This document shows positions 587 through 53,026 of a stretch of 64,000 nucleotides of DNA, one piece after another; positions within the stretch are counted from its first letter, which is position 1, and each line of letters opens with the position of its first letter. This DNA comes from an uncultured Candidatus Saccharibacteria bacterium (GTDB lineage Bacteria > Patescibacteriota > Minisyncoccia > 2-02-FULL-40-12 > GWA2-44-9). The notes beneath the pieces were generated by a model, which saw only the letters and a program-made list of their open reading frames with translations, did no database searches and was not told the DNA's origin. The translations under genes and the position numbers were made by a program. The stretch covers positions 40,048 through 104,047 of the forward strand of contig CAZAUE010000002.1 in NCBI GenBank assembly GCA_964488565.1, in the 5' to 3' direction.

Positions 587-967
587 TTTAGTTAGCGAGC
601 CAGCCCATCTCTGATTTTGCCTTTTCTGAGGAGGAGAAAATATATGAAAGCGAATTAAGGGATTTATCCAAAATAATAGGTGCTCGGAGGGCGGTGCTTT
701 AGCCCGCCCTAGAATCTCTGTCGAGCGCCGAGCCGTCAGCCTGCCTGCGGTAGTCAGGCAATAGGCTGACGAAGCGAGGAGGCAAGCGAGGGTTACTTAT
801 TATAGCTGCGAGTGAGGACAAATGTAAGCTTACTTACAGTTTGTCCGAACGAAGCAGATATACAACGTATTTTGGCTTAAATCCCAAATGAGCTAAGTAT
901 ATTTTAGAAGACGAGGACCGAGGTCAAAATTAGAGATGGACTAGGGAGAGGTAAGTTCCGCGCGGAA

Positions 968-1342
968 CTAAACATCAATATTTTTGAAGTGTTTAATTTT
1001 GGCAACCCCCTTAGATTCATCTAATCCGACCGAGATTATATCAATCTGCCACTCCTGTTCTGAATCATATTTCTTTTCCGCGAGATAAGTCCTCGCTGTT
1101 CTGACTACTTTAATCATTTTGGAACTATTGGCTCTTAGTTCTGGCTCGAAGCCGACAATTATTTTCCTGTTAGCTTTAACTTCGACAAAAACCAAAATCC
1201 CCTCTTTCAAAGCAATGATATCTATCTCGCCCCACGGCTTTCTATAATTTAATTCCAGCACAGTATATCCCCTTTTCTCCAAATAACGGGCGACTAAGTT
1301 TTCTGCCAAAAATCCCAGTTCGGATGTTTTACCTTGAGTCAT
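968..1342 (-). CDS. yraN: YraN/UPF0102 family endonuclease-like protein
   Basis: C-terminal region GYTVLELNYRKPWGEIDIIALKEGILVFVEVKANRK matches the UPF0102/YraN core. I place the start at the internal Met (MTQGKTSELGFLAENLVARYLEKRGY, ATG revcomp at 1340-1342), because the 30-aa N-terminal extension in the ORF track is atypical for this family. Confidence 0.65.
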   Translation of the reverse strand: MTQGKTSELGFLAENLVARYLEKRGYTVLELNYRKPWGEIDIIALKEGILVFVEVKANRKIIVGFEPELRANSSKMIKVVRTARTYLAEKKYDSEQEWQIDIISVGLDESKGVAKIKHFKNIDV

Positions 1343-1677
1343 TTTGACCAAATTATCACTAATTTTTTGTCCACACAACCAAATTGACTTTTGGGCCCAA
1401 AAAATGCTAAACTCAGTAGGTAATTCTCGCAAGAGGATTTTTGCTTTATATATAGGAAATACCTGTTTTTTGGTCCCGATGGCTTTGCCATCGAGGATCC
1501 TCGACTGTGTCGGGACTTAATAGGCTAAAAGACTGGCAAGGCTAACTAATTTAAAAATCAATTAGTAAATTACTCAAAAAAATCATAGCCCTGACACTAA
1601 AAGGTCAAGGGGAAGGGTCATTTTGGCCCAAATTAAAAAGCTTCAAAGAAAGCCCCTCGTTTAATTTTTATGGGACC

Positions 1678-11358: not shown

Positions 11359-12270
11359 ATGGACATTAAGACACTAAAAATCCAATATCTTGAACATCTA
11401 GAAATAGAGAAGAATCGTTCAGCTAAAACCCTTGAGAATTACGGGCGTTATTTGGATAGATTTTTACAATTCGCAAAAGTTTCCAATCCATCAGGAATTA
11501 CCGAAGATTTAATAAGACAGTACCGACTTCACTTAAACCGCCTGAAAGACAAAGAGGGGAACACTCTAAAAAAAGTCACCCAAAACTATCACATCATTGC
11601 CTTAAGAAATTTTTTGAAGTATTTAGCCAAAAGAGATATAAAATCCGTCCCAGCTGAAAAGGTTGAATTAGGAAAACAAGAAGATAGAGAAGTCACATTT
11701 CTTGAGGCTGATGAATTAGAAAGATTATTAAAATCACCCGAAGGAGATAATTTAGACACATTAAGAGACAGGGCTGTTCTTGGTACTTTGTTTAGTACTG
11801 GCATGCGTGTCTCTGAGCTTTGTTCATTGGATAGAAATAAAATAGACACAACTCGAGGAGAGCTAAGCATACGCGGGAAGGGGAGTAAGATTAGGGTGGT
11901 GTTTCTTTCTGATGACGCCAAAGAAGACATCAGTAAATACCTCTCTAAGCGTTCCGACATTGATGAGGCTCTTTTTATTCGAATTCCTAAATCAAAAACT
12001 TTTTCCAAAGACGACAACTTAAGGCTTACCCCACGAAGCATCCAAAGAATAGTTCAAAAATACGCCACCAAATCCGGCATCATGGGAAAGAGTGTCAGCC
12101 CTCACACCTTGCGTCACAGTTATGCCACCGACCTTCTACGCAATGGTGCCGACATCCGCTCCGTTCAGTCAATGCTCGGACACTCATCCGTCACTACAAC
12201 TCAAATCTATACTCACGTTACAGACAAGCAACTTAGAGAAGTGCACAAGAAATTTCATAACAAAAAATGA
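11359..12270 (+). CDS. xerC: tyrosine recombinase XerC/XerD family
   Basis: N-terminal SAM-like domain. Catalytic region with R...HTLRHSYAT...Y (TQIYTHV). 303 aa. Confidence 0.85.
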   Translation: MDIKTLKIQYLEHLEIEKNRSAKTLENYGRYLDRFLQFAKVSNPSGITEDLIRQYRLHLNRLKDKEGNTLKKVTQNYHIIALRNFLKYLAKRDIKSVPAEKVELGKQEDREVTFLEADELERLLKSPEGDNLDTLRDRAVLGTLFSTGMRVSELCSLDRNKIDTTRGELSIRGKGSKIRVVFLSDDAKEDISKYLSKRSDIDEALFIRIPKSKTFSKDDNLRLTPRSIQRIVQKYATKSGIMGKSVSPHTLRHSYATDLLRNGADIRSVQSMLGHSSVTTTQIYTHVTDKQLREVHKKFHNKK

Positions 12271-13612: not shown

Positions 13613-13702
13613 TGTAAAGGTCCTTCTTTGATACTAATTGCTTACAAAAATACCGCATTTAGCGGTATTGGTAAAGGAGGAGGAAGTCTGGGGGGGACTC
13701 GG

Positions 13703-13880
13703 TCACAGATAATTCTTCACTACTGGGGAGGGACTCGCCCACAAGTTGAATTGTCTTCCGACAATTCTCTTGCGGGCCCAGCTCGTGGTTTCGCTCGCCA
13801 ATTGCTCGCGAAACATCACTGCGCTTTTCGAGTCACTACGCGAGCCAAGCAGTTGGCTCGCTCCCTCGGGCTACTGAGTA
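13703..13880. repeat. GC-rich insert downstream of tRNA-Leu carrying a partial duplicate of the tRNA 3' end
   Basis: ctggggagggactcg at 13723-13737 duplicates the tRNA-Leu T-arm and acceptor sequence (13929-13943). It shares the cccagctcgtggttt...aacatcactgcgcttt module with 32470-32530. GC content is far above the flanks. Confidence 0.6.
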
Positions 13881-14121: not shown

Positions 14122-14787
14122 GTGTTGGGAACAAAACCATCCAAAAAAGTTATTACTTTTGCCATATCCGACAAGGAATATAAAAAATTTGGCTGTCCTG
14201 TTTGCGGACACGCTACAAGTAAGTGGTCATTCATGGGTGGTGGTGGATTAGTCGTAACATGTAAAAATACTAACTGCGAATCTATTTTTTATATCCTCAT
14301 TGGAAACTTCAAATCTTTTTACGTTAGATTTACCGATAAAACCGGCAAGTGTTTTACCCCAAAACTAGAAACGCATCCACGCAAAAACATACCTGCGTGG
14401 GGTGCAAGAGAGGATAAGAGATCACCAAAGACGGGCGAATTTTTTACGAACCCAAGCCAGTCTGAATATCGACACGGCCTTTGTTTTATTTGCAAAGATG
14501 TTTGCCGACTCCCGATTGACATAGAATGGCCAATGAAAAATCTTTTTTCTGTTAGCTTTAAAACACCCTGCGAAGAAGCGGCAAAAAGAATTCAAAAAAT
14601 CTTTGAAGCAAATGGACTTTGCATAAACACAGTAGGAAGTGGGGAAGAATATCCTCCTTCATTTTATCTTATAAACGTTTCCAGTTGCGTTGCTCACAAA
14701 CCCAATCTCTTAGAACTCCAAAAGGTTGCAAGAGAGAAGGGGGTCATCAACAAGAAAATCCTTTCAAAAATAAAGGCCCTCAAGTAG
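14122..14787 (+). CDS. hypothetical Cys-rich (zinc-finger-like) protein
   Basis: 221 aa with CPVCGH...CKNTNC and further Cys/His clusters. Lies between two tRNA genes. Terminator hairpin at 14788-14820. Confidence 0.4.
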   Translation: MLGTKPSKKVITFAISDKEYKKFGCPVCGHATSKWSFMGGGGLVVTCKNTNCESIFYILIGNFKSFYVRFTDKTGKCFTPKLETHPRKNIPAWGAREDKRSPKTGEFFTNPSQSEYRHGLCFICKDVCRLPIDIEWPMKNLFSVSFKTPCEEAAKRIQKIFEANGLCINTVGSGEEYPPSFYLINVSSCVAHKPNLLELQKVAREKGVINKKILSKIKALK

Positions 14788-14895: not shown

Positions 14896-16425
14896 TTAAA
14901 TAGAACGCTTGATTCTTTCCTCCTCGTATATATCTAATATATCTCCAACCTTAACATCTGCAAAATCTTTAGAAACAATATCAAACCTAATTCCAGCTTC
15001 AAGACCTTCTTTAACTTCAGGCATATCTTCTTTATTGTGCTGAAGTTGGCCAATCTTGCCCGTAATCACAACTAAACCGTTTCTTGTAACATCTCCCATT
15101 GCCCCCCTGACAACTTTGCCTGACATAACTCTGCCTCCAAATATTTGAGCTCTAGCATCTTTTTTAAACGTTGCCAAAACTTTTAATTTTCCAAGAGGAT
15201 TTTTCTTTATCTCCGCTCCCAAGAGAGCTGACATTTCTTCTCTAACATATTCTATTAATTCATAAATAATATCAAAATTAGATATTTTGATTCCTTCTTT
15301 GTCTGCTATTTTTTTTGCTGACTCTTCTGTTCCAACCCTAAAACCAATAACCTGACATTTTGAAGCAACAGCTGTTTTAATGTCGGCTTCAGAAATATTA
15401 CCAATATCATACGATATAACACGATAACCAATCTCAACTGATTTTATTGCCTTAAGTGAAGCTTCTATTGCTTCTAAAGAACTTGAGACGTCAGATTTAA
15501 AAACAAGATTCAAAAACTTTTTATTTTCATCACCAGTCTCAACGGAACCCTTAAAGAAAGTGAATAGGGGAGCGAGGTTAATATTACCTTCAGCAATTTT
15601 AGTTGCTTCGTCTTTGTTTGGAGCCACAACAAATTCTTTGCCGATATCCGGAGTTGTTGGCCATCCTGTAACCAAAACAGGCTGAGATGGTTTGGCCTGA
15701 ACAATGGCTTTGCCCATGAAATCTTCCATAGATTTTACTTTTCCAACAACAGTTCCAACAACGAGCCAGTCGCCCACACTAAGAATTCCTTTTTGAATCA
15801 ATACGGTGGCGACGTAGCCCCTTCTTTTATCTAGATTGGATTCAATTATTATTCCCGTAGCCGGTGATTCTAAATCTTCATTTAATTCTTCGAGCTCTGC
15901 CACCAAAAGAATCATGTCTAAAAGGGCATCTATGTTTCTGCCTTCTTTAGCTGAAATTTCTATAACAGGAACTGTTCCACCCCAATCTTCAACCAAAACA
16001 TCTTCTGTCGCTAAGTCTTGTTTAACCTTTTGAACATTTGCCCCTTCTTTGTCCATCTTATTTAATGCAACAATAAAAGGAATCTTCGCTTCTTTGATAA
16101 TTTTAATAGCTTCTTTTGTTTGAGGCTTTACGCTTTCATCGGCGGCAACCACCAAAATAGCAATGTCGGCCACTTTTGCCCCACGAGAACGAATGGCAGT
16201 AAAAGCTTCATGACCAGGTGTATCTAAAAAGGTAATAATCTTCCCATTAATATCTGTCTGATATGCTCCGATATGCTGAGTTATCCCACCAGATTCTCCT
16301 TCAGCTATTTTTGTTTTTCTTATTGTATCCAAGAGTTTTGTCTTGCCATGGTCGACATGACCCAAAACGACCACCACTGGTGGTCTTACGTTTTTGCCGT
16401 TTTTTATATCTTTAATGTCTGCCAT
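14896..16425 (-). CDS. infB: translation initiation factor IF-2 (short form lacking N-terminal domains)
   Basis: G domain VVLGHVDHGKTKLLD...DTPGHEAF...NKMD, followed by the IF-2 beta-barrel domains. Only 509 aa. Confidence 0.9.
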   Translation of the reverse strand: MADIKDIKNGKNVRPPVVVVLGHVDHGKTKLLDTIRKTKIAEGESGGITQHIGAYQTDINGKIITFLDTPGHEAFTAIRSRGAKVADIAILVVAADESVKPQTKEAIKIIKEAKIPFIVALNKMDKEGANVQKVKQDLATEDVLVEDWGGTVPVIEISAKEGRNIDALLDMILLVAELEELNEDLESPATGIIIESNLDKRRGYVATVLIQKGILSVGDWLVVGTVVGKVKSMEDFMGKAIVQAKPSQPVLVTGWPTTPDIGKEFVVAPNKDEATKIAEGNINLAPLFTFFKGSVETGDENKKFLNLVFKSDVSSSLEAIEASLKAIKSVEIGYRVISYDIGNISEADIKTAVASKCQVIGFRVGTEESAKKIADKEGIKISNFDIIYELIEYVREEMSALLGAEIKKNPLGKLKVLATFKKDARAQIFGGRVMSGKVVRGAMGDVTRNGLVVITGKIGQLQHNKEDMPEVKEGLEAGIRFDIVSKDFADVKVGDILDIYEEERIKRSI

Positions 16426-16525
16426 TTGAACCCGTAAATTATATCATTTTAAGCCCAAAATATCAATAAAAACCTACCTAAGAAGTTGAAATGAAACAAA
16501 AATAATGTTAAAATAGTATGGATTT

Positions 16526-16615
16526 GGAGACGTGTCAGAGTGGTCTAATGTGCCTCTTTGCTAAAGAGGTGATCGGTTTATCCCGGTCCGGAGGTTCGAA
16601 TCCTCCCGTCTCCGC
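16526..16615 (+). tRNA. tRNA-Ser (anticodon GCT), long variable arm
   Basis: Acceptor ggagacg/cgtctcc, anticodon loop uuGCUaa, long variable arm, T arm ggagg-ttcgaat-cctcc. Confidence 0.75.
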
Positions 16616-16761
16616 AGTGATAAATAAGGACAGCCGGTGGCTGTCCTTATTTAGTATCAATGCGTGATAGGGAGGATGAGAAAGGCGGAGCGCTGGCGCG
16701 AGCCGGGGTCGCGGAATTTTTCAGTAGAAAAATATCTGTGACCGAATCCTCCCGTCTCCGC
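16616..16761. repeat. about 145-bp GC-rich insert after tRNA-Ser ending in a 19-bp duplicate of the tRNA 3' end
   Basis: cgaatcctcccgtctccgc at 16597-16615 is repeated at 16743-16761. The insert begins with a terminator hairpin (aaataaggacagccggtggctgtccttattt) and contains the cgcgagccggggtcgcgg module. Confidence 0.65.
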
Positions 16762-16765
16762 CAAC

Positions 16766-17488
16766 TTACCCCCTCGCAACCACCAAAGCTACAACTCTTG
16801 AGGCTCCACCAGCCTTCAAGATCTTGGCACATTCATTTAATGTTGCTCCCGTGGTGCAAACATCATCTACCAACAACACCTCTCGCCCAATTATTTTTTC
16901 TTTATTTTTTATCCTAAAAATTCCATTCAAATTTTTTAATCTTTCTTCTCTCTCTTTAATGTCTGCCTGTGGGGTGGCGTTAATTGTTCGCTCAACAACA
17001 TCAACCGCCATTTCCATTTGAAATGTATCGGAGATATTTTTGGCCAATAATTCTGACTGATTAAAACCTCTCCAATTTAAACGCCTCAAATGAAGAGGCA
17101 CGGGAATCAAAAGGGGATTAGACTCAAAGACATTAAACTTTTTATCCAACGTTAGCCACTTAAGATACTTCTTAATTAAAACAGATAATGGCTGTTCCAA
17201 ATCAGATATAAATTTATACTTAAAGAACTTGAGAGTTTTTTCAACTAAGTGATTCTTATAATCCGCCACAATTAACAACTGATCAGCGGGGTTGGTCTTG
17301 GTGCAAAGAAAACAGGTTTGCCCAAAAGGAGTGTTCCTTTTACATCCTATGCATTCAAAGGACTTCTTTGTTGGTATTGCCCCAAGACATCCTCGACAAA
17401 CATAATCGCCAAAATCACCACAATCTATACATCTAATAGGGAAAATTGTATCCAAGAGCCAAACAAGGCCTTTCTGGGGATAATTCAT
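16766..17488 (-). CDS. comFC: competence protein ComFC (phosphoribosyltransferase-type)
   Basis: N-terminal Cys4 zinc finger (CIDCGDFGDYVCRGC). C-terminal PRTase motif VLLVDDVCTTGATL. Confidence 0.8.
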   Translation of the reverse strand: MNYPQKGLVWLLDTIFPIRCIDCGDFGDYVCRGCLGAIPTKKSFECIGCKRNTPFGQTCFLCTKTNPADQLLIVADYKNHLVEKTLKFFKYKFISDLEQPLSVLIKKYLKWLTLDKKFNVFESNPLLIPVPLHLRRLNWRGFNQSELLAKNISDTFQMEMAVDVVERTINATPQADIKEREERLKNLNGIFRIKNKEKIIGREVLLVDDVCTTGATLNECAKILKAGGASRVVALVVARG

Positions 17489-32399: not shown

Positions 32400-32569
32400 A
32401 ACTCCCTTTAGGGAGTTTTATAATCTGGTGGTCACAAGTATTTTTCCTGACGGAAAAATCTCGCGACCCCAGCTCGTGGTTTTTGCCTTTCGCTATCGCT
32501 CAAACAAAAACATCACTGCGCTTTCCAAAAGCTAAAAATCTAAAGCAGTTTAGATTTTCTGACGCTTTG

Positions 32570-32804: not shown

Positions 32805-32876
32805 GCCCTCGTAGTTCAATGGATAGAACAAATCCGTCCTAAGGATAAAATGGGGGTCCGATTCCCTCCGAGGGCA
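32805..32876 (+). tRNA. tRNA-Arg (anticodon CCT)
   Basis: Acceptor gccctcg/cgagggc, D arm with GG, anticodon loop guCCUaa. The T loop reads tccgatt (C at position 55), which is unusual, so confidence is moderate. Confidence 0.55.
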
Positions 32877-33031
32877 CAAATTATGTTACGTTTTACGTAA
32901 AGCAAGTGAACTGCTTCACTTGCGTCAGAATTTGTGAGTTCGGAACTTATGACAGTCAATAGACTGTCATGTGAGAACGGGGTCGCGACCGAGCCAAGCG
33001 ACGGCGAGGCGAGAGTTGTGACCAAAAAGAT

Positions 33032-34465
33032 ATGAAATTACCAGAAGAAGTCCAAAATATAATCAAAAAGCTTCAAGATTCAGGATTTGAGGGGTATGCC
33101 GTGGGTGGCTGTGTCCGAGATTTATTATTGGGCAAAGAACCCAAAGATTGGGACATTACAACCAACGCCAAGCCGGAGGAAATACAAAACATATTTCCTG
33201 AACATGTTTACGAAAACACATTTGGAACCGTAGCGGTTAAAACCGGTTCAGAAAAATCTGAGCTTACTCTTGTTGAAGTTACACCGTATCGCATTGAAGG
33301 CAAATACACGGACAAACGCCATCCTGATGATGTTAAATTTGCCGACAAACTTGAAGACGATTTATCGCGTCGTGATTTTACGGTTAATGCTCTGGCGATG
33401 GATATTGATGGCAAAATCATAGATCTTTTTGATGGCAAAAAAGACTTGAAATCAAAAACAATAAGAACTGTAGGCGAGCCGGAAGAAAGATTTAATGAGG
33501 ATGCTTTGAGGTTGCTACGGGCCGTAAGATTCGCAACAATTCTTGATTTTAAAATAGAAAAGAAAACATTAGAAGCGGTAACCAAAAATTCAGATTGGTT
33601 GATAGCTATATCCAAAGAAAGAATCAGAGATGAGTTTGTTAAAATAATCAATTCTGACAACGCATATGATGGAATTGTACTTCTTAATGAAACAGGGTTA
33701 TTAAAACATATTGTTCCGGAACTATTAGAAGGAATCGGAGTTGGTCAAAACCTTCATCATATTTATACAGTCTGGGAACACAATCTTTTAGCTCTTAAGT
33801 ATGCCGTCAGTAAAAACTACTCACTGGAGGTAAGGCTTGGTTCATTGTTTCATGACATTGGTAAACCTCAAACAAAAAGAGGGGACGGGAAACATTCAAC
33901 CTTTTATGGACATGATGTGGTTGGGGCTAGAATAACCGCTGAGGTAATGGATAGATTAAAGTTCCCCAAAGAAACAGCCGAGAAAGTTATCAAACTTGTC
34001 CGTTACCATCTTTTCTATTACAACGTAGATGAGGTGACCGAATCCTCTGTAAGACGATTATTGGTGAACGTTGGTCCTGAAAACATGAGCGACCTAATAA
34101 AAATACGAGAAGCAGATAGAATTGGTTCAGGGACACCAAAAGCAGTTCCTTATAAATTAAGGCACCTGCAATATATCATTGATAAGGTTTCCCATGACCC
34201 GATTTCTGTAAAAATGTTAAAGGTCGGCGGAGAAGATGTTATAAAGGAACTTAAAACCCAACCAGGACCTAAGGTTGGATTGATTTTAAACTATCTTTTA
34301 GCTGAAGTAATAGATGATCCGTCAAAAAATACAAAAGAATATCTAGAACAAAGAATCCATGAATTAGATAAAGAGTCCCCAGAAGAATTAAAAAAATCAT
34401 TAGAAAAGATAGAGAAGGCGATTGAGGAGGAGGAGAAGGAAAGAATGAAGAAGTATTACGTTTAA
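33032..34465 (+). CDS. cca: CCA-adding tRNA nucleotidyltransferase with C-terminal HD domain
   Basis: Pol-beta NTase motif GGCVRDLLLG..DWDI, RRDFTVNALA, and an HD domain (HHIYTVWEH...FHDIGK). All tRNAs in the window lack an encoded CCA. Confidence 0.85.
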   Translation: MKLPEEVQNIIKKLQDSGFEGYAVGGCVRDLLLGKEPKDWDITTNAKPEEIQNIFPEHVYENTFGTVAVKTGSEKSELTLVEVTPYRIEGKYTDKRHPDDVKFADKLEDDLSRRDFTVNALAMDIDGKIIDLFDGKKDLKSKTIRTVGEPEERFNEDALRLLRAVRFATILDFKIEKKTLEAVTKNSDWLIAISKERIRDEFVKIINSDNAYDGIVLLNETGLLKHIVPELLEGIGVGQNLHHIYTVWEHNLLALKYAVSKNYSLEVRLGSLFHDIGKPQTKRGDGKHSTFYGHDVVGARITAEVMDRLKFPKETAEKVIKLVRYHLFYYNVDEVTESSVRRLLVNVGPENMSDLIKIREADRIGSGTPKAVPYKLRHLQYIIDKVSHDPISVKMLKVGGEDVIKELKTQPGPKVGLILNYLLAEVIDDPSKNTKEYLEQRIHELDKESPEELKKSLEKIEKAIEEEEKERMKKYYV

Positions 34466-34468
34466 TTT

Positions 34469-34540
34469 CGGGCCGTAGTGTAACGGTAACACGCACGATT
34501 CGGGTTCGTGAGACTCCGGGTTCAAATCCCGGCGGCCCGA
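34469..34540 (+). tRNA. tRNA-Pro (anticodon CGG)
   Basis: Acceptor cgggccg/cggcccg, anticodon stem cacga/tcgtg, loop uuCGGgu, T arm ccggg-ttcaaat-cccgg. Confidence 0.75.
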
Positions 34541-34710
34541 CTGGAGCAACGCGAAAGGAGGGGTGCAGCAAACAAACTACTTTGTTTGCGTCGAGAAGTG
34601 AAAAGCGGAGCGATATTTCTCGAACAGTTGGTGAGAGAAATCGCGAGCTGGGCCTGCGACCGAGCCGACGGAAGTCGGCGAGAGTTGTAGGCAAATCCCG
34701 GCGGCCCGAC
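34541..34710. repeat. about 170-bp GC-rich insert after tRNA-Pro ending in a perfect 19-bp duplicate of the tRNA 3' end
   Basis: caaatcccggcggcccgac at 34523-34541 is repeated at 34692-34710. The insert carries the gcgaccgagcc...cggcgagagttgt module shared with 32985-33020. Confidence 0.7.
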
Positions 34711-35215: not shown

Positions 35216-35254
35216 TGTTTAAACATAATACCAGAAAAATATTAATTTTCAAAC

Positions 35255-35326
35255 GGGCCCGCCCTCACACCTACTTAGCACTGAGGGCCTCCGGCCCTAA
35301 AGTGTTATTGTGCTAAGTAGGTGTGA
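35255..35326. repeat. 65-bp palindromic insert flanked by a 7-bp direct repeat (gggcccg) at the 5' end of tRNA-Ala(CGC)
   Basis: Perfect 20-bp arms ccctcacacctacttagcac / gtgctaagtaggtgtgaggg (35262-35281 / 35310-35329) with a GC hairpin in the loop. gggcccg at 35255-35261 duplicates the tRNA acceptor 5' strand at 35327-35333. Confidence 0.65.
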
Positions 35327-35397
35327 GGGCCCGTAGTTAAGTGGCATAACGCGACATTCGCATTGTCGAGGCGGGAGTTCGATTCTCCCCGGGTCCA
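35327..35397 (+). tRNA. tRNA-Ala (anticodon CGC)
   Basis: Acceptor gggcccg/cgggucc with G3:U70, anticodon stem cgaca/tgtcg, loop uuCGCau, T arm gggag-ttcgatt-ctccc. Confidence 0.7.
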
Positions 35398-39204: not shown

Positions 39205-39765
39205 ATGAATCGTCGTCTCACTACAGTAATTGTTTTATTAGGAGTTGTGGTTCTGTTTGTTCCAAGGAGCACTCAAGCTGCCAACCCGTTCAGTATCTTT
39301 AAAATTATCGGTACAATAAATGATGCGGTCCGTTCAGCACAAATCCCTAGTGGCCCATCAGCATTGGCTCCTTTTGGAGGGAGAATAACAGAAAGCGGGA
39401 CGGCATGTAAGCTGAATTACTGGACAGGATATCCCATTCCCTTTTTTCCTTTTTATGTTACTCACCCAGGACCACCCATTCCTCTTTTTGGAACAAAAAT
39501 TAGTGTAAGTCGTCCAGGAATTCCGGTATCGGATGTTTTCACATTCCCAGGTATCACCAAAATTTACCCCAATCACAATGAGGACAAGGTGGGGAAATGG
39601 ACACTTGGTCAGGTTTATAGGACTAATTTTATGGGACCACTCATAGACAAAATAAACTCTACCCTAAGCTCAATGCCTCCTATAGTGGTTGGGCCAGTAA
39701 CCTTTTATAATTTTAGTTTAAGTTGCCCAGACGGTAAGGCAATCTTCAAGATTGGCACAAGTTAA
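39205..39765 (+). CDS. secreted hypothetical protein, first gene of the T4SS-like operon
   Basis: Signal peptide MNRRLTTVIVLLGVVVLFVPRSTQA. Pro/Gly-rich mature part. No recognisable family. Confidence 0.45.
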   Translation: MNRRLTTVIVLLGVVVLFVPRSTQAANPFSIFKIIGTINDAVRSAQIPSGPSALAPFGGRITESGTACKLNYWTGYPIPFFPFYVTHPGPPIPLFGTKISVSRPGIPVSDVFTFPGITKIYPNHNEDKVGKWTLGQVYRTNFMGPLIDKINSTLSSMPPIVVGPVTFYNFSLSCPDGKAIFKIGTS

Positions 39766-39814
39766 CATATCAACACTCTTATTGTTGGTTTAGTGCTATA
39801 ATTAGGGCACAGAA

Positions 39815-40732
39815 ATGGCAAATAAATTCAAACTTTTTGTCGGTTTTTTGGCATTGATAGCCCTATTTTCGGTTTACAGTTTCTTCAATTCTTTTAGCTC
39901 TCCTTCTCCGATTACAAAAACCGCAAACATGCTCCAAAATTCTACATCCTTTAAGGTTGATGCCGATACAGATAAAGATGGTTTAACCAATCGAGACGAA
40001 TCCTATTGGAACACAGATTTTCAAAACCCCGATACTGATGGTGATGGATTTTTAGATGGAGAAGAAGTTTCATCCGGCCATGATCCTTTAATCCCTAGCC
40101 CAAACGACCTTTTAAATACTGGCAACACGACATACAAACTATCAAATCTCACACTCTCTGGTCTTTATGAAGGTTCTCTTGCTCCGAATAATCCAAATTA
40201 CAACAAATCCATATATGACATGGCACTTGCAGTTATGGATGATGCCTCCAGCGAGTTAAGCTCTAAAATTTCTCCTGAAAAAATAAAGACCTCAAAATCC
40301 AACAAAGAAAACCAGGAAAAATACATTAGGGAGATATCTCCTCTAATCGAGCAGATGTTCTCAGCTTATGTATTTGAGTTAAATAAAATTGCAAGCGACT
40401 TCAATAATTCAGAACTATCTAACTCAGACGATCAAATAATTGAATTTTTCAAGAATCAATCTGAACAATATGATGAGTATCTCAACACAGCACTAAACAT
40501 CGTCCCGCCTAAAAATTGGGAGTCTGATCATGTTGGGCTTTTAAAACTTCTTGAAGACCTAAAAAATGTTCATGCGGCAATCTTTAAAAATAATACTGAC
40601 CCGATCACAGCACTTGTTGCAATGAATCGACTCAGTGGTCTTTTGGAAATAATCCCCAAAATAACACTATCTTACGCTGAAAAAGTTGAGGTTGAAAAAA
40701 TAAAAACCGAATCAACTATTTTCCACAAATGA
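39815..40732 (+). CDS. secreted/membrane-anchored protein with thrombospondin type-3-like Ca-binding repeats
   Basis: N-terminal hydrophobic segment. DADTDKDGLTNRDE...DTDGDGFLDGEE repeats (DxDxDG). Remainder helical. Stop overlaps the next start (ATGA). Confidence 0.5.
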   Translation: MANKFKLFVGFLALIALFSVYSFFNSFSSPSPITKTANMLQNSTSFKVDADTDKDGLTNRDESYWNTDFQNPDTDGDGFLDGEEVSSGHDPLIPSPNDLLNTGNTTYKLSNLTLSGLYEGSLAPNNPNYNKSIYDMALAVMDDASSELSSKISPEKIKTSKSNKENQEKYIREISPLIEQMFSAYVFELNKIASDFNNSELSNSDDQIIEFFKNQSEQYDEYLNTALNIVPPKNWESDHVGLLKLLEDLKNVHAAIFKNNTDPITALVAMNRLSGLLEIIPKITLSYAEKVEVEKIKTESTIFHK

Positions 40733-42282
40733 GAGTAATCTTTTTAAAAACAATTACCTGCTTACTCTTTGTTATTCTTATTTATCCCAACAACACCGCA
40801 TTTGCAGCACCAACGGTTGGTTCAATTTCTGTGGGTGCCGCTAGATTTGGTGCTTGCTCCATAGGAGGAAAAATATCTCCCTACTTAAGCCAAGTATTGG
40901 ATGACGGCTACAAAAATCTCAATAAAGGAATAAATAAAATTATCGCCCGAATTCCTGGATTATCTAGAATACCAGGTATCGGAGGATTGGCTGGTGGGGT
41001 TCTCGGTGGAGATTCTGTTCCGGTCAATGATGCTGGTTTAAATACTATTCAAAGCAGGCTTTTGGCAAAAGAAACTTCTGGTGACATTGCAACCAGATGC
41101 GCTTCTATGGAGGTTTTGAATTTTATGAACACAAGCATAAATGATCTAGCCAGAAATAGTGGTAGAAATGGCGGAGCGTCCTGGATTAGAAATTGGAGAA
41201 ACTTTCAAACCGACTCCCAATACAGAGGAGAGGGAATATTTAGAGCGATGCTTTCAAATACAAAACTTTGCGATTACTTTAGCGGTGACCTTAAGGGGTT
41301 ATTTGGAGCAACAACACCAACGGCTGCACCCAGAAATACCAGAACAGGCAATCTTGATCCCTACGCCCTTCGTGCTAATTGCACTATGCCCTCAGGTTTT
41401 AATTTAACCAATTATCAGAACGATTTTTCTGGAAATGGTGGTTGGAATGCTTTTTCGAGAATGCTTGAACCACAAAATAATTACTATGGAGCTTTGTTCG
41501 GGGCTTTAGATGAGGTGTCCAAGCAAAGATCGTTAGAGGAGTCGGCTGATTTAAACCAAGTTATAGCAAACAGGGGTTTCACTGGAAGGAGTGGTGGAAA
41601 TGCAGCTGAAAGTTGCTCTTCAAGAGACCCAAGTGGTAAATGTCTTAGCTACAACGACATAAAGACACCCGGAAGTGTAATCGCAGATAGTATTGCCGCA
41701 TCAATAAAAACAGAACTTGATGTGGCTGTTTCGGCAGATGAAATAAGTGAACTAATAAGCACCGCCACCGATGTTTTAATAAACAGATTAAAAGACCTTG
41801 GTAATCCTAATGAAGGTGAGTACTTATCATATACACCTCCCGAAGTGTCTGAAGAAGCACCACCCGGAGGTGGTGGTCGTTGTGCTGGAACAAGCACGGG
41901 TCCAATCTATGAGGGAGCTCTTGATGGTGCAATTAGTGCTGTTATTACTGCCAATCCGGGAGGAATAGCCGATGAACTTAACACCGCCAATAATGGTTTT
42001 GTTTTTCTAAGCTATTTAGGCCCAGAACTAGAGCGAAGAGGATTTAACGCTACCGCTACGGTCTTGAATGGAAATGACAATCCCAACCAAGGAGATTTAA
42101 TTGCGCTTCAGAGACCAAACGAGCCGGAATGGGAACGATATGATGTAATTGTTAATTCCGGAGCAGGAGATGCTCCACTAAGGACAGTGGTCGGTACTGA
42201 CTATGTAGGCACCATTCCTTTGAGTTGTGTTACGGGTGGTAGTGGTGGTGGTGGAACACCAACTCCTGAACCGGCATTTTAA
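40729..42282 (+). CDS. large secreted Cys-containing hypothetical protein
   Basis: Signal peptide ending NNTAFA|AP. 517 aa. Gly-rich segments and a C-terminal GGSGGGGTPTPEPAF tail. Translationally coupled to the flanking genes. Confidence 0.45.
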   Translation: MRVIFLKTITCLLFVILIYPNNTAFAAPTVGSISVGAARFGACSIGGKISPYLSQVLDDGYKNLNKGINKIIARIPGLSRIPGIGGLAGGVLGGDSVPVNDAGLNTIQSRLLAKETSGDIATRCASMEVLNFMNTSINDLARNSGRNGGASWIRNWRNFQTDSQYRGEGIFRAMLSNTKLCDYFSGDLKGLFGATTPTAAPRNTRTGNLDPYALRANCTMPSGFNLTNYQNDFSGNGGWNAFSRMLEPQNNYYGALFGALDEVSKQRSLEESADLNQVIANRGFTGRSGGNAAESCSSRDPSGKCLSYNDIKTPGSVIADSIAASIKTELDVAVSADEISELISTATDVLINRLKDLGNPNEGEYLSYTPPEVSEEAPPGGGGRCAGTSTGPIYEGALDGAISAVITANPGGIADELNTANNGFVFLSYLGPELERRGFNATATVLNGNDNPNQGDLIALQRPNEPEWERYDVIVNSGAGDAPLRTVVGTDYVGTIPLSCVTGGSGGGGTPTPEPAF

Positions 42283-44741
42283 TGATAAAAATAAAACTAT
42301 CAAAACTTAGTTTATTATTTGTACTAATCGCGGTGAGCGCAATGGTTTTGCTTCCAACACATCCAGTTAATGCCGCGTGTATTGCTGGATTTTTCCCCAT
42401 AACAGACTGCATTCTTGTGGGAACATCCTATCTTGTTTATTTAGTATTCACGATAGTTGGTCAAGGCATCGCTGCTCTGGTTGGGGTTCTTCAGTGGGTT
42501 ATAAATCTTCCTGTTTACCCAGCTGACGGCCAGAGAATCGCTGTTATTGATGAAAGTTGGAAAATAATGAGAGACTTTGCCAACATGTTTTTCATCTTAG
42601 CTCTTATTCTGATGGCGTTTGCAACTATTTTTGACGTTCTTCCTGGAGCGGCTAAATATAATGCTCGGGCTTTGTTCGGTAAATTTATTTTTACAGCACT
42701 TCTTATAAATTTCAGTCTAGTGCTCGGGGTTATGGTTATTCAAGGAACTCAAGTTCTAAATAATACATTTCTGACATCAATAGGGGACATGTCTAGTCAA
42801 TTGGGGCAAGCATTAAATCCGTCACTTTTACTTCCAAATATTAGTTCCGCAACAATTTCCCAAGCAGTAGATCAGGGCTTGTTTGGATCTCTTATTTCAC
42901 TAGTATTTGCTGTTGTTTTGGCTTTTACTTTTTTATTCAGTCTTTTGACAGCAGTTATCTTTTCCTTCATTAGAATTCCGATTCTCTGGGCCCTGTTAGT
43001 GATTTCACCGATTGCCTGGATTTTAAATATTTTTCCGGCAGGAGAAGGTATGTTTAAAAAATGGTGGAGTACATTCATAGGTTGGAATATGTTTCTTCCA
43101 ATCTTTCTGTTTTTCCTTTATTTCGGTCTTTATTTCCTTAAGAGCCAAGGCACCACAATGCAGGCAATAGCAGGAAGCTCTGGTACTGGTACTATTCTGG
43201 GTGACACTGTCACAAGTTTCACTTTTCAAATGTTGTTCATGTATGTCATGGCAGGAATATTCTTAATTGGTGGAACAATCGTCGCCATGAAAGCATCTAT
43301 GTTGTCTGGAACTGGAGTGCTGGGAATTGCGAAGTGGTCACGAGGAAAAGCGGCGCGCTGGACAGGATTAACCGGAGCAAATCAAGCTTGGCAGGAAAAG
43401 AGAAAAGAAATTGAAGGAGGAGAGGGGAGATTGGGCAGAATTTTTGGTGGTCCACCGATGGGACTTGAGTCATCCAGAAGACTGCTCGGTGTCAGAGGAG
43501 GAGATTACAAAACCCAAAAGGAATTCGTTGATAGGGCTGGAAAAGAATATGACCTTATTCAAAATCAATATGACACTGGCAAAATTAGTGTTAATGACAT
43601 AGTTGCCCGAGCTAGCCAAGGAAGTGCTACTAATCCAGAGACATACGCCTACAGAAAAATGGCTGCCAAAATGGGTAAACTTACTGATCCTATTTTTGAA
43701 AAAACAGTTAACGACTTGTCGGAAAATCCTTATGCTCTGCAAGACTTTATTAAAACAGCCAAAGAGGGCAAGTTTTCCGATGTTGGTGCTGGTACAATAC
43801 TTGATTTTGCCTCTCGACAAGGTGGTTTTGCGAATACCGGACCCAATGCACTTCCAGGTAGACGAGAAACATATAGACACATTCAGTCTAATGCCAAAAT
43901 AATGTCTAATCCGAGATTTGGTCAAAGTGAATTCAATCAAGGTGTAGACATTTTTGGCGGACATACAACCGCTGAAGGTCAAAGCTTCTTAGAAGATGTT
44001 GGCAAAACCAGACCTGACTTGGTCATAGATTACAATATGGGAAATGAGGATGTAATGAGAAAGATAAACGATAGAAGGAGAGAAGAGGGTAAAAATCCAG
44101 TTACTCGTTCAGAAATGTTTGATGGTTATATTAAAGACGCAAAAGATATCGCCAACCTTCCCAAGACTGTGTGGACAAATCAAGACTTTCAAAAAGCTCT
44201 CGAAAGAAAACTGTCTTTCGGTAGCCCCAAGGCTCAAAGAAATTTCCGAAACCGTATCATTGATAACCTTAGGACTGCCATGAACGGCGAGGACAAGAAA
44301 AATATTTTAAACACATTGTCAGGAGCTAGAGATGATGGACAAACACCAGACAATGACAACTTTGGAGAAGACGACTTGGATTTAGATAACGATGAAACTC
44401 CACCAACAGGGGGTGGTCCTGGTCCAACAACACCGCCAACCCCAACAACTCCTCGAACTAACAATGTAAACCCTAACAACGTCGTTAATTTAAGAAACCC
44501 CACAACTCAAAACACTAGGGGGTCAGGATGGCTATCTGATGTACAACAAAACATTGAGAGGCTCGGCAAACAAGAATTTACACTTGAAGATGCGTATAGT
44601 TTTGAGGGCGAACTAAGCACACTTCATCCTGAAAATAAATTTGTAAAAGATAAAATCCGACAACAACTACAGGTTCTACGTGATAAAGGATACCTTGAAT
44701 TTACTGGCCCAGGAAAATACCGAATAAAAAATAGCCCATGA
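42282..44741 (+). CDS. VirB6/TrbL-like polytopic membrane protein with large C-terminal hydrophilic extension
   Basis: N-terminal signal or TM segment plus about 7 further TM helices over about 330 aa (the VirB6/TrbL architecture). Then a roughly 450-aa soluble domain containing a PT-rich linker (GGGPGPTTPPTPTTP). Position immediately upstream of VirB3-like and VirB4 genes. Confidence 0.5.
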   Translation: MIKIKLSKLSLLFVLIAVSAMVLLPTHPVNAACIAGFFPITDCILVGTSYLVYLVFTIVGQGIAALVGVLQWVINLPVYPADGQRIAVIDESWKIMRDFANMFFILALILMAFATIFDVLPGAAKYNARALFGKFIFTALLINFSLVLGVMVIQGTQVLNNTFLTSIGDMSSQLGQALNPSLLLPNISSATISQAVDQGLFGSLISLVFAVVLAFTFLFSLLTAVIFSFIRIPILWALLVISPIAWILNIFPAGEGMFKKWWSTFIGWNMFLPIFLFFLYFGLYFLKSQGTTMQAIAGSSGTGTILGDTVTSFTFQMLFMYVMAGIFLIGGTIVAMKASMLSGTGVLGIAKWSRGKAARWTGLTGANQAWQEKRKEIEGGEGRLGRIFGGPPMGLESSRRLLGVRGGDYKTQKEFVDRAGKEYDLIQNQYDTGKISVNDIVARASQGSATNPETYAYRKMAAKMGKLTDPIFEKTVNDLSENPYALQDFIKTAKEGKFSDVGAGTILDFASRQGGFANTGPNALPGRRETYRHIQSNAKIMSNPRFGQSEFNQGVDIFGGHTTAEGQSFLEDVGKTRPDLVIDYNMGNEDVMRKINDRRREEGKNPVTRSEMFDGYIKDAKDIANLPKTVWTNQDFQKALERKLSFGSPKAQRNFRNRIIDNLRTAMNGEDKKNILNTLSGARDDGQTPDNDNFGEDDLDLDNDETPPTGGGPGPTTPPTPTTPRTNNVNPNNVVNLRNPTTQNTRGSGWLSDVQQNIERLGKQEFTLEDAYSFEGELSTLHPENKFVKDKIRQQLQVLRDKGYLEFTGPGKYRIKNSP

Positions 44742-45046: not shown

Positions 45047-45054
45047 ATACAAGC

Positions 45055-47456: not shown

Positions 47457-47465
47457 TCAATAACC

Positions 47466-48029: not shown

Positions 48030-48030
48030 T

Positions 48031-52749: not shown

Positions 52750-52752
52750 TGA

Positions 52753-53022: not shown

Positions 53023-53026
53023 ACAA

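What the first reader, a model, noticed from the sequence alone, without database searches (positions are those of the whole stretch)
16526..16761. tRNA-Ser followed by a 145-bp insert ending in a perfect 19-bp duplicate of the tRNA 3' end
cgaatcctcccgtctccgc at 16597-16615 (T-arm plus acceptor) is repeated exactly at 16743-16761. The intervening 127 bp is GC-rich and carries the cgcgagccggggtcgcgg module related to the inserts at tRNA-Pro and tRNA-Arg. The comFC stop lies 5 bp beyond the duplicate. This is the second instance of a mini-insert with att-like duplication at a tRNA 3' end.
Basis: seen in the sequence. Interest (0 to 1): 0.7.

Follow-up and report, generated by a model that had tools for sequence, protein, structure and literature searches.

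The report
RtT-like structured insert behind tRNA-Ser
The 146 bases after tRNA-Ser are one copy of a widespread, undescribed family of small structured elements that sit behind tRNA genes of ultra-small (CPR) bacteria, duplicate the tRNA's last 19 bases, and are built like the enigmatic E. coli RtT repeats, whose function has been unknown since 1978.

Summary
tRNA-Ser(GCT) lies at 16526-16615, and its last 19 nt recur exactly at 16743-16761. The interpretation (a mini-insert with an att-like duplication) is only partly right.

The 127 nt in between belong to a conserved family. A covariance model finds exactly five copies in the window, each directly 3' of a tRNA (Ser, Pro, Leu, Arg, Ala-GGC). 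It finds about 125 more in CPR metagenome contigs, behind tRNAs of at least 16 isotypes and behind tmRNA.

Each element has three parts:
- a segment antisense to the neighbouring tRNA's T-loop and T-stem (positions 54-64);
- a scaffold with strong covariation (95% paired; strand-specific G:U pairs);
- a copy of that tRNA starting exactly at C56.

Antisense and copy pair to close the scaffold, leaving an acceptor-strand/(N)CCA tail.

Filled and empty alleles exist (L128 vs L158; L127 vs L121/L248). The distal copy keeps the native flank, so it is the original tRNA end.

No protein gene travels with the element. It has no Rfam match. E. coli RtT (RF00391) has the same architecture but no detectable sequence relationship.

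Best reading: an RtT-like, recombination-prone RNA module that is co-transcribed with the tRNA and ends in a tRNA-mimicking helix. Its function and mode of spread are unresolved.

The parts
16486..16514 (+). Promoter-like site of tRNA-Ser (TTGAAA-17-TAAAAT, with TG extension). It is the only + strand promoter-like site between the infB start and the distal copy, so the element is probably transcribed from it.
16526..16615 (+). tRNA-Ser(GCT). Its gene lacks CCA (..CCG C AG).
16597..16615 (+). Proximal 19-nt repeat, tRNA positions C56-C74 (part of the T-loop, the T-stem 3' strand, the acceptor 3' strand, the discriminator and C74).
16621..16653 (+). Perfect 15-bp hairpin (TAAATAAGGACAGCC/GGCTGTCCTTATTTA) directly after the tRNA. 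It looks like a terminator. Its stem can extend outward, pairing the tRNA 3' end with the antisense segment (28-nt imperfect inverted repeat 16595-16622 / 16655-16682).
16662..16682 (+). Antisense segment GCGTGATAGGGAGGATGAGAA. It matches the reverse complement of tRNA-Ser positions 54-74 at 15 of 21 positions; the GGGAGGAT part is exact. GAUGAGAA replaces GAUUCGAA, which gives tandem G.A/A.G opposite G57 and A58. It pairs with the distal copy to form helix P0.
16668..16752 (+). Covariance-model match of the element (71.6 bits, E about 3e-19): antisense segment, scaffold, and the first 10 nt of the distal copy.
16680..16742 (+). Conserved scaffold core, in order: GAAAGGCGGAG; a minimal P2 (GCGC-UG-GCGC); CGAGCCGGGG; and P3, GGUCGCGGA[AUUUUUC-AGUA-GAAAAAU]AUCUGUGAC(C). 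The R in GAAARGCG covaries with the Y in GAGCYGGG. One G:U pair in P3 is conserved.
16743..16761 (+). Distal 19-nt repeat (C56-C74). By comparison with other loci it is the original 3' end of the tRNA gene. It is the 3' strand of P0 plus a free acceptor-strand tail.
16762..16763 (+). CA after the distal copy. It completes an encoded CCA that the working tRNA gene lacks. The relative L250 has the same tRNA-Ser with an encoded CCA.
34588..34701 (+). Sister element behind tRNA-Pro(CGG) (88.8 bits). Its 19-nt repeats are at 34523-34541 and 34692-34710.
13728..13841 (-). Sister element behind tRNA-Leu(UAA) (83.1 bits). It is followed by a 13-nt copy, the truncated end of an older element, and a degenerate third copy (13690-13743).
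32421..32538 (-). Sister element behind tRNA-Ala(GGC) (65.3 bits). The scaffold is intact, but both the antisense match and the distal copy are lost.
32922..33035 (+). Divergent sister element behind tRNA-Arg(CCU) (45.3 bits; not in the model's training set). It has no distal copy and abuts the start of the CCA-adding enzyme gene.

Best explanation
The insert is a member of a family of small (about 110-170 nt), protein-less, structured elements that live at the 3' end of tRNA and tmRNA genes of Parcubacteria/Paceibacterota (CPR). They are built like the E. coli RtT (tyrT 178-bp) repeats.

Genetic level:
- Shown: the unit is [optional hairpin / antisense to the tRNA 3' end / conserved scaffold] plus one extra copy of tRNA positions 56-74(76).
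- Shown: the distal copy is the gene's original end and keeps the native downstream flank. The tRNA now ends in the proximal copy.
- Shown: units are present or absent between near-identical strains, occur as identical tandem units, and exchange scaffold segments between loci.
- Inferred: gain, loss and amplification go through recombination on the 19-21-nt direct repeats. The tRNA body and the distal copy serve as homology arms, which suits naturally competent CPR cells. How new tRNA specificities arise is not known.

Molecular level (all inferred):
- The element is transcribed from the tRNA promoter as a trailer.
- The antisense segment pairs with positions 56-64 of the distal copy, and in long forms a second antisense block pairs with the acceptor strand.
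- A three-way-junction scaffold is thereby closed by a helix that imitates the stacked T-stem and acceptor stem of the neighbouring tRNA and ends in discriminator-(C)CA.
- That mimic lets tRNA end-processing enzymes cut out and stabilise a discrete RNA, as for E. coli rtT RNA, whose annotated 3' end is the CCA of the copy.
- The conserved junction (tandem G.A, invariant G:U) is the working part and probably binds a protein or ligand. What it does is unknown.
For: Family and position:
- Model R1 finds 5 hits in the window, all directly 3' of tRNAs and on the same strand.
- It finds 125-133 hits in 100 metagenome loci.
- It finds 0 hits in 0.95 Mb of viral and 0.73 Mb of non-CPR control DNA.
- 95 of 122 pattern hits have a same-strand tRNA just upstream, covering 16 isotypes. 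Others follow tmRNA.

Structure:
- 18 of 25 pairs show compensatory changes in the MAFFT alignment.
- In 117 distinct sequences, 95.1% of cells are paired, against 75% when shuffled and 37-49% when slid. All 25 pairs change on both sides. One G:U pair is kept in 107 of 117.

Antisense segment:
- Watson-Crick complementarity to the neighbouring tRNA is 88% at position 59, against 28% when partners are shuffled. It is 73% against 26% at position 64, and falls to background from position 65 on.
- An anti-acceptor block sits 25 nt upstream of the T-arm antisense. It matches at 8 or more of 10 positions in 21% of elements, against 2.6% in controls.

The distal copy is the original end:
- L128 vs L158; L127 vs L121/L248.
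- An encoded CCA is found in 13.7% of element-bearing genes and 28% of element-free genes. By my count from the listing it is found in roughly 30% of distal copies.

The structural part of the copy is preferentially kept: 13 mismatches at positions 56-64 against 61 at 65-73.

Dynamics:
- Identical tandem units in L225, L242 and L154.
- Mosaic or converted cores: L175 vs L172 are 96.7% identical exactly from TCGAA to GTGACCGA.
- Only 1 element in 138 kb from relatives.

No linked gene.

E. coli parallel:
- The sequence of the tyrT/tyrV region shows antisense GGGGAAGGATGAGAA, about 95 nt, then a 19-nt copy ending in CCA.
- The Rfam RtT consensus structure pairs the antisense segment with the copy.
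- rttR is annotated to end at that CCA.

A promoter-like site is found only upstream of the tRNA.
Against: - No expression data are available for any CPR element.
- Long forms, including this one, carry a terminator-like hairpin between the tRNA and the scaffold. That would limit read-through.
- G:T-tolerant hairpins are also compatible with a single-stranded DNA structure, so covariation does not prove an RNA.
- Two of the five window copies (Ala-GGC, Arg) have an intact scaffold but no distal copy, and Ala-GGC has no antisense match. The closing helix therefore cannot be indispensable.
- Passive recombination does not explain how antisense and copy came to match more than 16 different tRNAs and tmRNA.
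- The RtT analogy is architectural only. RF00391 does not hit the window even at E<=5, and R1 does not hit the tyrT locus.
Confidence: 0.5

Rival explanations
1. Guide-RNA module. The scaffold is the handle of an RNA-guided nuclease, transposase or recombinase encoded elsewhere in the genome. The 19-21 nt after the last hairpin act as a 3' guide, as in TnpB omega-RNA or Cas12 crRNA. The target would be the tRNA gene next to a GGTT 'TAM'. Alternatively, the antisense segment is the guide. Either way the element would home to tRNA T-arms.
For: - The form fits: a conserved hairpin ending in ..YGUGAC lies directly before a variable 19-21-nt tRNA-specific stretch.
- The target in the gene is always preceded by GGTT.
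- Many tRNA isotypes are served by one scaffold.
- The scaffold-proximal part of the copy is better kept than the far part, as for a seed.
- Near-identical scaffolds carry different flanking specificities.
Against: - No TnpB, IscB, Cas12, IS110 or reverse transcriptase gene occurs in the 64-kb window, and no gene family recurs next to the 119 loci.
- There is no Rfam hit to any known guide-RNA family.
- The 'guide' is simply the displaced original gene end with its native flank.
- It is sequestered by pairing with the antisense segment.
- GGTT is universal in tRNAs, so it carries no information.
- A guide identical to the host's own essential genes would be self-targeting.
Confidence: 0.12
2. 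Single-stranded-DNA mobile element. The conserved hairpins are DNA structures read by an enzyme acting in trans: a HUH enzyme (as RAYT does for REPINs, or IS200/IS605 TnpA for PATEs) or a Xer/integron-type tyrosine recombinase. Antisense and copy would fold into a duplex that imitates the tRNA-gene target, like the folded attP of CTX phage or integron attC sites.
For: - The structure is strand-specific, with tolerated G:T pairs and conserved unpaired motifs.
- Presence/absence polymorphism and target duplication are seen.
- No gene lies inside the element, which is the REPIN-like situation.
- Antisense and sense arms are separated by about 95 nt, as in the folded attP of CTX phage (own knowledge).
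- A Xer-like recombinase gene lies at 11359-12270.
- An E. coli mobilome study reports raised exonuclease-resistant DNA coverage over the tyrT-rttR region under stress (10.1101/2024.07.17.603846).
Against: - That recombinase is syntenic in relatives that lack the elements at the nearby tRNAs, so it looks like a housekeeping gene.
- No HUH gene was seen.
- Copies within one genome are diverged (49% mean column identity) rather than forming a recent burst.
- IS200/IS605-type insertion makes no 19-bp duplication.
- Retargeting would need both arms to change together.
- The E. coli counterpart is a detected RNA (Bosl and Kersten 1991, as cited in PMC3318445).
Confidence: 0.13
3. Scar of a classical tRNA-targeting integrative element. 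The 19-bp repeats would be attL and attR cores left after an integrase-carrying island or phage integrated and most of it was deleted.
For: - A direct repeat running from the T-loop to the tRNA 3' end is the textbook signature of tyrosine-integrase sites in tRNA genes (own knowledge, Williams 2002).
- Empty sites exist.
Against: - The 127 nt between the repeats are not random remnants. They are a conserved, covarying family found about 130 times, always the same size class and orientation, with no integrase fragment.
- A specific pattern scan of viral contigs found nothing. Neither did model R1 over 100 viral loci that had been picked out by a 15-base motif match.
- The duplicate is part of the structure.
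Confidence: 0.03
4. Cis-acting trailer for the upstream tRNA only. The antisense segment would pair with the nascent tRNA's T-arm and 3' end to control its folding, 3' maturation or termination. The distal copy would act as a competing decoy. No separate RNA product would matter.
For: - The antisense segment tracks the working tRNA rather than the decayed copy in the informative cases I read by hand (L141, L203, L219, L212, L239).
- In long forms the tRNA 3' end, hairpin and antisense segment make one long inverted repeat.
- Every tRNA gene in this window lacks an encoded CCA, so each needs 3' processing and CCA addition.
Against: - Most tRNAs of close relatives do without it.
- The large conserved scaffold is unnecessary for a simple antisense switch.
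- Orphan elements exist away from any tRNA (L147, behind dnaA).
- Tandem units would have no tRNA to act on.
Confidence: 0.15

Closest known systems
E. coli RtT RNA / tyrT 178-bp repeats (Rfam RF00391, gene rttR)
   Same: - It lies directly 3' of a tRNA gene on the same strand.
- It begins with a segment antisense to the tRNA T-arm, GGGGAAGGAUGAGAA. This even carries the same GAUGAGAA variant as the tRNA-Ser element here.
- A scaffold of about 95 nt follows, and it ends in a 19-nt copy of the tRNA 3' end.
- The Rfam consensus pairs the antisense segment with the copy and leaves the acceptor strand plus ACCA free.
- It occurs in tandem units and varies in copy number between strains.
- No function is established.

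   Different: - There is no detectable sequence or covariance-model relationship in either direction.
- The junction topology differs: P0[P1b-P2, P3] here, against one stem enclosing two hairpins in RtT.
- The copy starts at C56 here and at A58 in RtT.
- In MG1655 all four RtT units sit at the tyrT-tyrV locus and one unit encodes the small protein Tpr. From my own recollection of Rfam, the family is confined to enterobacteria.
- The CPR family serves at least 16 isotypes plus tmRNA and has no ORF.
attL/attR duplications of tyrosine-integrase elements in tRNA genes
   Same: - A direct repeat reaches from the T-loop to the tRNA 3' end.
- The original end is displaced distally.
- Empty sites occur in relatives.
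   Different: - There is no integrase, no cargo and an insert of only 127 nt.
- The insert is a conserved covarying structure.
- The repeat is part of that structure.
TnpB/IscB omega-RNAs and Cas12 crRNAs
   Same: A conserved structured handle whose last hairpin abuts a variable stretch of about 20 nt. That stretch equals DNA flanking the element.
   Different: - No effector gene is nearby.
- There is no family match.
- The variable stretch is paired within the element.
- The target would be the host's own essential tRNA gene.
REPIN/RAYT and IS200/IS605-derived PATEs; folded single-stranded att sites (CTX phage attP, integron attC)
   Same: Short, gene-less, hairpin-rich, strand-specific repeats that depend on something acting in trans. 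The folded arms imitate a target duplex.
   Different: - A 19-21-bp duplication is made.
- The elements are strictly tied to tRNA 3' ends.
- Copies within a genome are diverged.
- No HUH enzyme or dedicated recombinase was found.
tRNA-mimic processing modules (viral tRNA-like structures, MALAT1 mascRNA, bacterial YrlA)
   Same: An acceptor/T-stem-like helix with an NCCA tail that could recruit RNase P, RNase Z or the CCA-adding enzyme to define RNA ends.
   Different: - The mimic here is assembled from an antisense segment and a literal copy of the neighbouring tRNA's end.
- It therefore differs at every locus.
- There is no D-arm or anticodon-arm mimic.

Membership tests
RtT RNA (RF00391) / tyrT-type tRNA-linked repeats | Lies immediately 3' of a tRNA gene, on the same strand | tested here: met
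   The element at 16616-16761 follows tRNA-Ser 16526-16615. All 5 window copies and 95 of 122 metagenome copies do the same.
RtT RNA (RF00391) / tyrT-type tRNA-linked repeats | The unit ends in a copy of about 19 nt of the adjacent tRNA's 3' end | tested here: met
   19 of 19 at 16743-16761. For E. coli.
RtT RNA (RF00391) / tyrT-type tRNA-linked repeats | A 5' segment antisense to the T-arm pairs with the copy to close the structure | tested here: met
   P0. The Rfam RtT consensus structure is shown.
RtT RNA (RF00391) / tyrT-type tRNA-linked repeats | Scores at or above the Rfam gathering threshold (45 bits) for RF00391 | tested here: not met
   No RtT hit at the gathering threshold or at E<=5. 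The reciprocal search with R1 gives no hit on the tyrT locus.
RtT RNA (RF00391) / tyrT-type tRNA-linked repeats | Released as a discrete RNA from the tRNA transcript | not testable with these tools
   No expression data. The only promoter-like site lies upstream of the tRNA.
Integrase-mediated integrative element at a tRNA gene | Direct repeats of the tRNA 3' end flank the insert, and empty sites occur in relatives | tested here: met
Integrase-mediated integrative element at a tRNA gene | An integrase gene (or its remnant) and cargo lie between the repeats | tested here: not met
   The 127-nt insert holds no ORF. No gene family recurs next to the 119 loci. The only tyrosine recombinase in the window lies about 4 kb away and is syntenic in relatives that lack elements at the neighbouring tRNAs.
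omega-RNA / crRNA guide RNAs | A structured handle directly adjoins a variable guide of 16-24 nt | tested here: inconclusive
   The form is met. However, the 'guide' is the displaced gene end and is paired internally.
omega-RNA / crRNA guide RNAs | A cognate effector gene (TnpB, IscB, Cas12 or similar) is adjacent or in the same element | tested here: not met
MITE / REPIN-type non-autonomous transposon | Many near-identical copies within one genome, and a short fixed target duplication | tested here: not met
   The five window copies share 49% mean column identity. The duplication is 19-21 nt and is tied to the tRNA end.
Group I intron in a Patescibacteria tRNA gene | It interrupts the tRNA (anticodon loop), and Rfam finds a group I core | tested here: not met
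   The tRNA is intact. There is no intron hit. The introns reported for this phylum sit at position 35/36 (PMC13011429).

The most novel reading that the evidence does not exclude
The elements may be self-contained targeting modules of a still unknown nucleic-acid-guided system. In this reading the antisense segment, and/or the tRNA-derived 3' stretch, reads the T-arm of tRNA and tmRNA genes or of the RNAs themselves. A factor acting in trans then inserts or copies the scaffold there. This would make them a guided, tRNA-specific mobile element carrying no gene of its own, and it would make E. coli RtT its long-overlooked relative.
Probability: 0.15. Interest if true: 0.9.

Novelty: new variant of a known kind. 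Interest (0 to 1): 0.72.

Why it matters
It would give a name and a model to a family of structured elements attached to most tRNA genes in some of the smallest known bacterial genomes: 5 of 7 tRNAs in this window. Such genomes are expected to shed useless DNA.

It also ties that family by architecture to E. coli RtT. RtT is present in 4741 of the 5426 complete E. coli genomes searched, and its function has been unknown since the tyrT repeats were sequenced in 1978.

The CPR family supplies what RtT never had:
- hundreds of diverged copies at many different tRNAs;
- hence a covariation-supported structure;
- a clear rule for the tRNA-specific parts (antisense to positions 54-64, copy from position 56 onward);
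- natural filled and empty alleles.

That makes three open questions directly testable: whether these are tRNA-mimicking regulatory RNAs, selfish recombination cassettes, or guided mobile elements.

Tried and rejected
It returned 120 chance hits in GC-rich genomes. R1 later found none of the 100 I tested (L021-L120) to be real, so they served only as a negative control.

2. Viral contigs. Two specific patterns gave 0 hits. A 15-mer pattern gave only chance hits, and R1 found nothing in the first 100 of them. I found no sign of phage carriage.

3. Rfam at permissive E-values gave nothing for the scaffold.

4. A search for a linked protein. ORFs within 4 kb of the elements in 119 loci were clustered. 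Only housekeeping families recur: RbfA-like, NifS, IF-2, MiaA and the CCA-adding enzyme. Pfam annotation of the window shows no TnpB, Cas, HUH or reverse transcriptase gene.

5. An orthologous empty site for this exact tRNA-Ser.
- L250 carries the same tRNA with an encoded CCA, but its contig ends 24 nt later.
- The L253 contig ends inside the T-loop.
- L252 has no tRNA-Ser.
- The filled/empty proof therefore comes from other loci.

6. A retro-copy origin for the distal CCA. I rejected this because the native flank continues beyond the CCA, and because the CCA frequency of distal copies matches that of element-free genes.

7. Near-identical scaffolds at different tRNAs as proof of transposition. 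I weakened this claim because the identity block stops exactly at the scaffold borders and the P1 hairpins differ. That fits gene conversion between existing elements equally well.

8. The motif hit at 20033 is not a family member.

9. Literature searches found no description of the CPR family. One search was malformed, and the original rtT paper is not held.
Full report
OBSERVATION. The window comes from Candidatus Yanofskybacteria GW2011_GWA1_39_13 (CPR/Parcubacteria). Its ComFC is 100% identical to the protein of that name. ARAGORN and Rfam place tRNA-Ser(GCT) at 16526-16615. The only direct repeat in 16400-16900 is CGAATCCTCCCGTCTCCGC at 16597-16615 and 16743-16761, 19 of 19 identical. It begins exactly at C56, after GGTT of the T-loop, and ends at C74. 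The distal copy is followed by CA, so it reads CCA, which the gene itself lacks. The 127 nt in between are 51-54% G+C in a 26-43% background. The comFC stop codon starts 5 nt after the repeat. The description is correct and far beyond chance. The same 19/19 duplication occurs at tRNA-Pro.

WHAT LIES BETWEEN THE REPEATS. Aligning the regions downstream of five tRNAs (Ser, Pro, Leu, Arg, Ala-GGC) shows shared motifs: GAAARGCGSAGYGAU, CRCGAGCYGGG and YUGUGAC. They are separated by hairpins whose sequences differ while their pairing is kept. Rfam has no family for it, even at E<=5.

In 95 of 122 matches a tRNA lies just upstream on the same strand, covering 16 isotypes. Several others follow tmRNA. 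A few are orphans, for example L147 behind dnaA. Exact-protein look-ups place these contigs in Paceibacterota, Vogelbacteria, Nomura-/Yonathbacteria and Moranbacteria.

A covariance model built from 44 non-redundant copies gave these results:
- exactly five elements in the window, including the Arg copy that was not used in training;
- 125-133 in 100 metagenome loci;
- one in 138 kb from eleven loci of relatives;
- none in 1.7 Mb of unrelated control DNA.

ANATOMY.
(i) Scaffold. RNAalifold on the plain MAFFT alignment gives a three-way junction. It consists of P0, a 3-bp helix RGC/GCY enclosing P2, and P3 with a nested hairpin. 18 of 25 pairs show compensatory changes.

On 117 distinct sequences, 95.1% of cells pair, against 75% when shuffled and 37-49% when slid by 1-3 columns. 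All 25 pairs change on both sides. That alignment is fitted to the model, which inflates these numbers somewhat.

One G:U pair is kept in 107 of 117 sequences, and another position alternates G:U and G:C. The structure therefore exists only on the tRNA-sense strand.

(ii) Antisense segment. The 11 nt ending in the GAA of GAAAGGCG are the reverse complement of positions 54-64 of the neighbouring tRNA. Watson-Crick frequency is 88% at position 59 against 28% with shuffled partners, and 73% against 26% at position 64. It is at background from position 65 on.

In 'long' forms a second block, antisense to positions 65-74, sits 25 nt further upstream, before a P1 hairpin (examples).

(iii) Distal copy. 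It always starts at C56, immediately after ..GUGAC. It is perfect over 18 nt in 28 of 56 in-register elements.

The antisense segment and positions 56-64 of the copy form P0, which closes the scaffold. Where the anti-acceptor block is present, the result imitates the stacked acceptor and T stems of that tRNA. P1 stands where the D and anticodon arms would be, the scaffold stands in the T-loop, and the tail is discriminator-(C)CA.

In the tRNA-Ser element the antisense segment is contiguous (16662-16682, 15 of 21 matching) and there is no P1. P2 is minimal. GAUGAGAA replaces GAUUCGAA, which gives tandem G.A/A.G opposite G57 and A58.

INSERTION OR ORIGINAL DESIGN? Both.

Filled and empty alleles exist. 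L128 and L158 are identical over the tRNA-Gly gene and more than 100 nt of flank. The only difference is a 173-nt block, which is the element plus one copy of CGATTCTCCCTACCCGCAC.

In L127 (another Yanofskybacteria) the tRNA-Ser ends ..CACCGC|TAATG.., while the distal copy reads ..CACCGCCAGTTAGGAA. That is the native end and flank seen in the element-free L248. L121 shares its first part, CCAGTTA. The distal copy is therefore the gene's original 3' end.

The CCA statistics agree. An encoded CCA occurs in 28% of element-free tRNA genes of these contigs, but in only 13.7% of element-bearing ones. By my count from the listing it occurs in about 30% of distal copies. This also removes the need for a retro-copy of mature tRNA.

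Other dynamics:
- Tandem units are identical (L225, L242, L154).
- Older truncated units lie distal to newer ones (the tRNA-Leu locus here; L131).
- Scaffold cores can be 92-98% identical at different tRNAs, with the identity block running exactly from TCGAA to GTGACCGA. The Gly and Arg elements of L128 share P3 but not their 5' halves. I read both as recombination or gene conversion between resident elements.

The degenerate 5' half of the L128 Gly element suggests that the L128/L158 difference is a precise deletion across the 19-nt repeats rather than a fresh insertion. This is inference.

When copies decay, they do so mainly at positions 65-73 (61 mismatches) rather than 56-64 (13 mismatches). 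The P0-forming part is therefore retained.

NO PARTNER GENE. Nothing is encoded inside the element. Only housekeeping families recur within 4 kb of the 119 loci. The window has no TnpB, Cas, HUH or reverse transcriptase gene. Its single Xer-like recombinase (11359-12270) is syntenic in relatives that lack elements at the neighbouring tRNAs. Only the tRNA-Ser promoter is predicted upstream.

CLOSEST KNOWN. The E. coli tyrT/tyrV locus carries four RtT units (Rfam RF00391; rttR). Each unit begins with GGGGAAGGATGAGAA, which is antisense to the tRNA-Tyr T-arm and has the same GAUGAGAA variant. About 95 structured nt follow, and each unit ends in the 19-nt tRNA-Tyr 3' end including CCA.

Rfam's consensus pairs the antisense segment with the copy. 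The annotated rttR RNA ends at that CCA. RtT is present in 4741 of 5426 complete E. coli genomes and varies between strains. Its function is still called unknown. From my own knowledge, the repeats were first described by Egan and Landy (1978) and the RNA by Bosl and Kersten (1991).

The architecture is thus the same, but neither model detects the other family, and the junction topology differs. I therefore file the CPR family as a new variant of this kind, not as a member of RF00391.

HOW IT MOST LIKELY WORKS.
Shown:
- the anatomy;
- covariation on the sense strand;
- complementarity specific to the neighbouring tRNA;
- that the distal copy is the original gene end;
- indel polymorphism, tandem amplification and mosaicism;
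- the absence of a linked gene.

Inferred:
- co-transcription with the tRNA;
- folding into a scaffold capped by a tRNA-like helix;
- excision by tRNA-processing enzymes into a stable RNA whose junction binds an unknown partner;
- gain, loss and amplification by recombination on the direct repeats, with the tRNA gene and the distal copy as homology arms.

Unexplained:
- how antisense and copy became matched to more than 16 tRNAs and tmRNA;
- why long forms carry a terminator-like hairpin;
- why two window copies keep the scaffold without the arms.

The rivals are a guide RNA for an unlinked effector, an ssDNA element moved in trans, a purely cis-acting trailer, and an integrase scar. They are weighed in their own sections. 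Only the last is essentially excluded.

VERDICT. The feature is real and non-random. It belongs to a large, apparently undescribed CPR family with an RtT-like design. I found no description of it in Rfam or in the literature searched.

Noticed in passing
window 16486-16765, compared with L121-L127 and L247-L250: The whole tRNA-Ser cassette (promoter, tRNA, element, distal copy) is inverted relative to comFC and infB. In every relative that carries the tRNA, comFC, tRNA-Ser and infB lie on one strand. L250 has the same tRNA-Ser sequence with an encoded CCA 27 nt after the comFC stop.
   Followed up: partly
window 14122-14787 (+): A 221-aa cysteine-rich ORF with no Pfam match sits between tRNA-Cys and tRNA-Leu. 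Those two tRNAs are only 15-25 nt apart in all relatives examined, so this looks like a lineage-specific gene insertion.
   Followed up: no
window 35253-35334: A 21-nt perfect inverted repeat (35261-35281 / 35310-35330) overlaps the 5' end of tRNA-Ala(CGC). The acceptor 5' strand GGGCCCG is duplicated upstream. This is a different, 5'-side tRNA-linked structure.
   Followed up: no
window 32805-32877 and 32922-33035: tRNA-Arg(CCU) has an unusual T-loop, TCCGATT, with C at position 55. Its element reads ..TCGGAAC.. where the family has TCGAAAG. That places a G opposite C55, which hints that even the 'constant' GAA tracks the tRNA.
   Followed up: partly
window 13690-13743 (-): Behind the tRNA-Leu element lie a 13-nt copy, the last ~23 nt of an older element (..GAATTATCTGTGAC), and a degenerate third copy. 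These are nested remnants of successive units.
   Followed up: partly
window 39205-49104: A block of mostly unannotatable genes. It includes a TraG/VirB4-like P-loop ATPase (45711-47456) and an 819-aa protein with a DpnI_C domain (42282-44741). It may be an integrated conjugative or defence island. dnaA and dnaN follow at 51376-54336.
   Followed up: no
L128:12900-13260 (-) vs L158:5270-5617 (+): Two metagenome strains, identical in the tRNA-Gly(GCC) gene and its flank, differ only by one element plus one 19-nt repeat. This is a clean filled/empty allele pair.
   Followed up: yes
L251 (E. coli MG1655, 1286000-1288200), 711-1495 (-): All four RtT units carry GAUGAGAA instead of the perfect antisense GAUUCGAA, as does a subset of the CPR elements. 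Opposite G57 and A58 of the copy this makes tandem G.A/A.G mismatches. It could be a shared protein-binding motif or convergence.
   Followed up: partly
L131:7050-8470 (-): Four tRNAs (Cys, Leu-UAA, Lys, Leu-UAG) within 1.4 kb each carry an element. There are also an orphan element and truncated remnants, so in some CPR genomes nearly every tRNA of a cluster is occupied.
   Followed up: partly
L253:8753-8825: The contig ends inside the T-loop of tRNA-Ser. This is consistent with assemblers breaking at the duplicated 19-mer, so short-read assemblies may undercount these elements.
   Followed up: no
L147:5150-5380: An orphan element sits behind dnaA. Its distal copy is a good tmRNA-type 3' end (CGATTCCCGGCATCTCCACCA), but no tmRNA gene lies upstream. 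The element seems to have been separated from its gene by rearrangement.
   Followed up: partly
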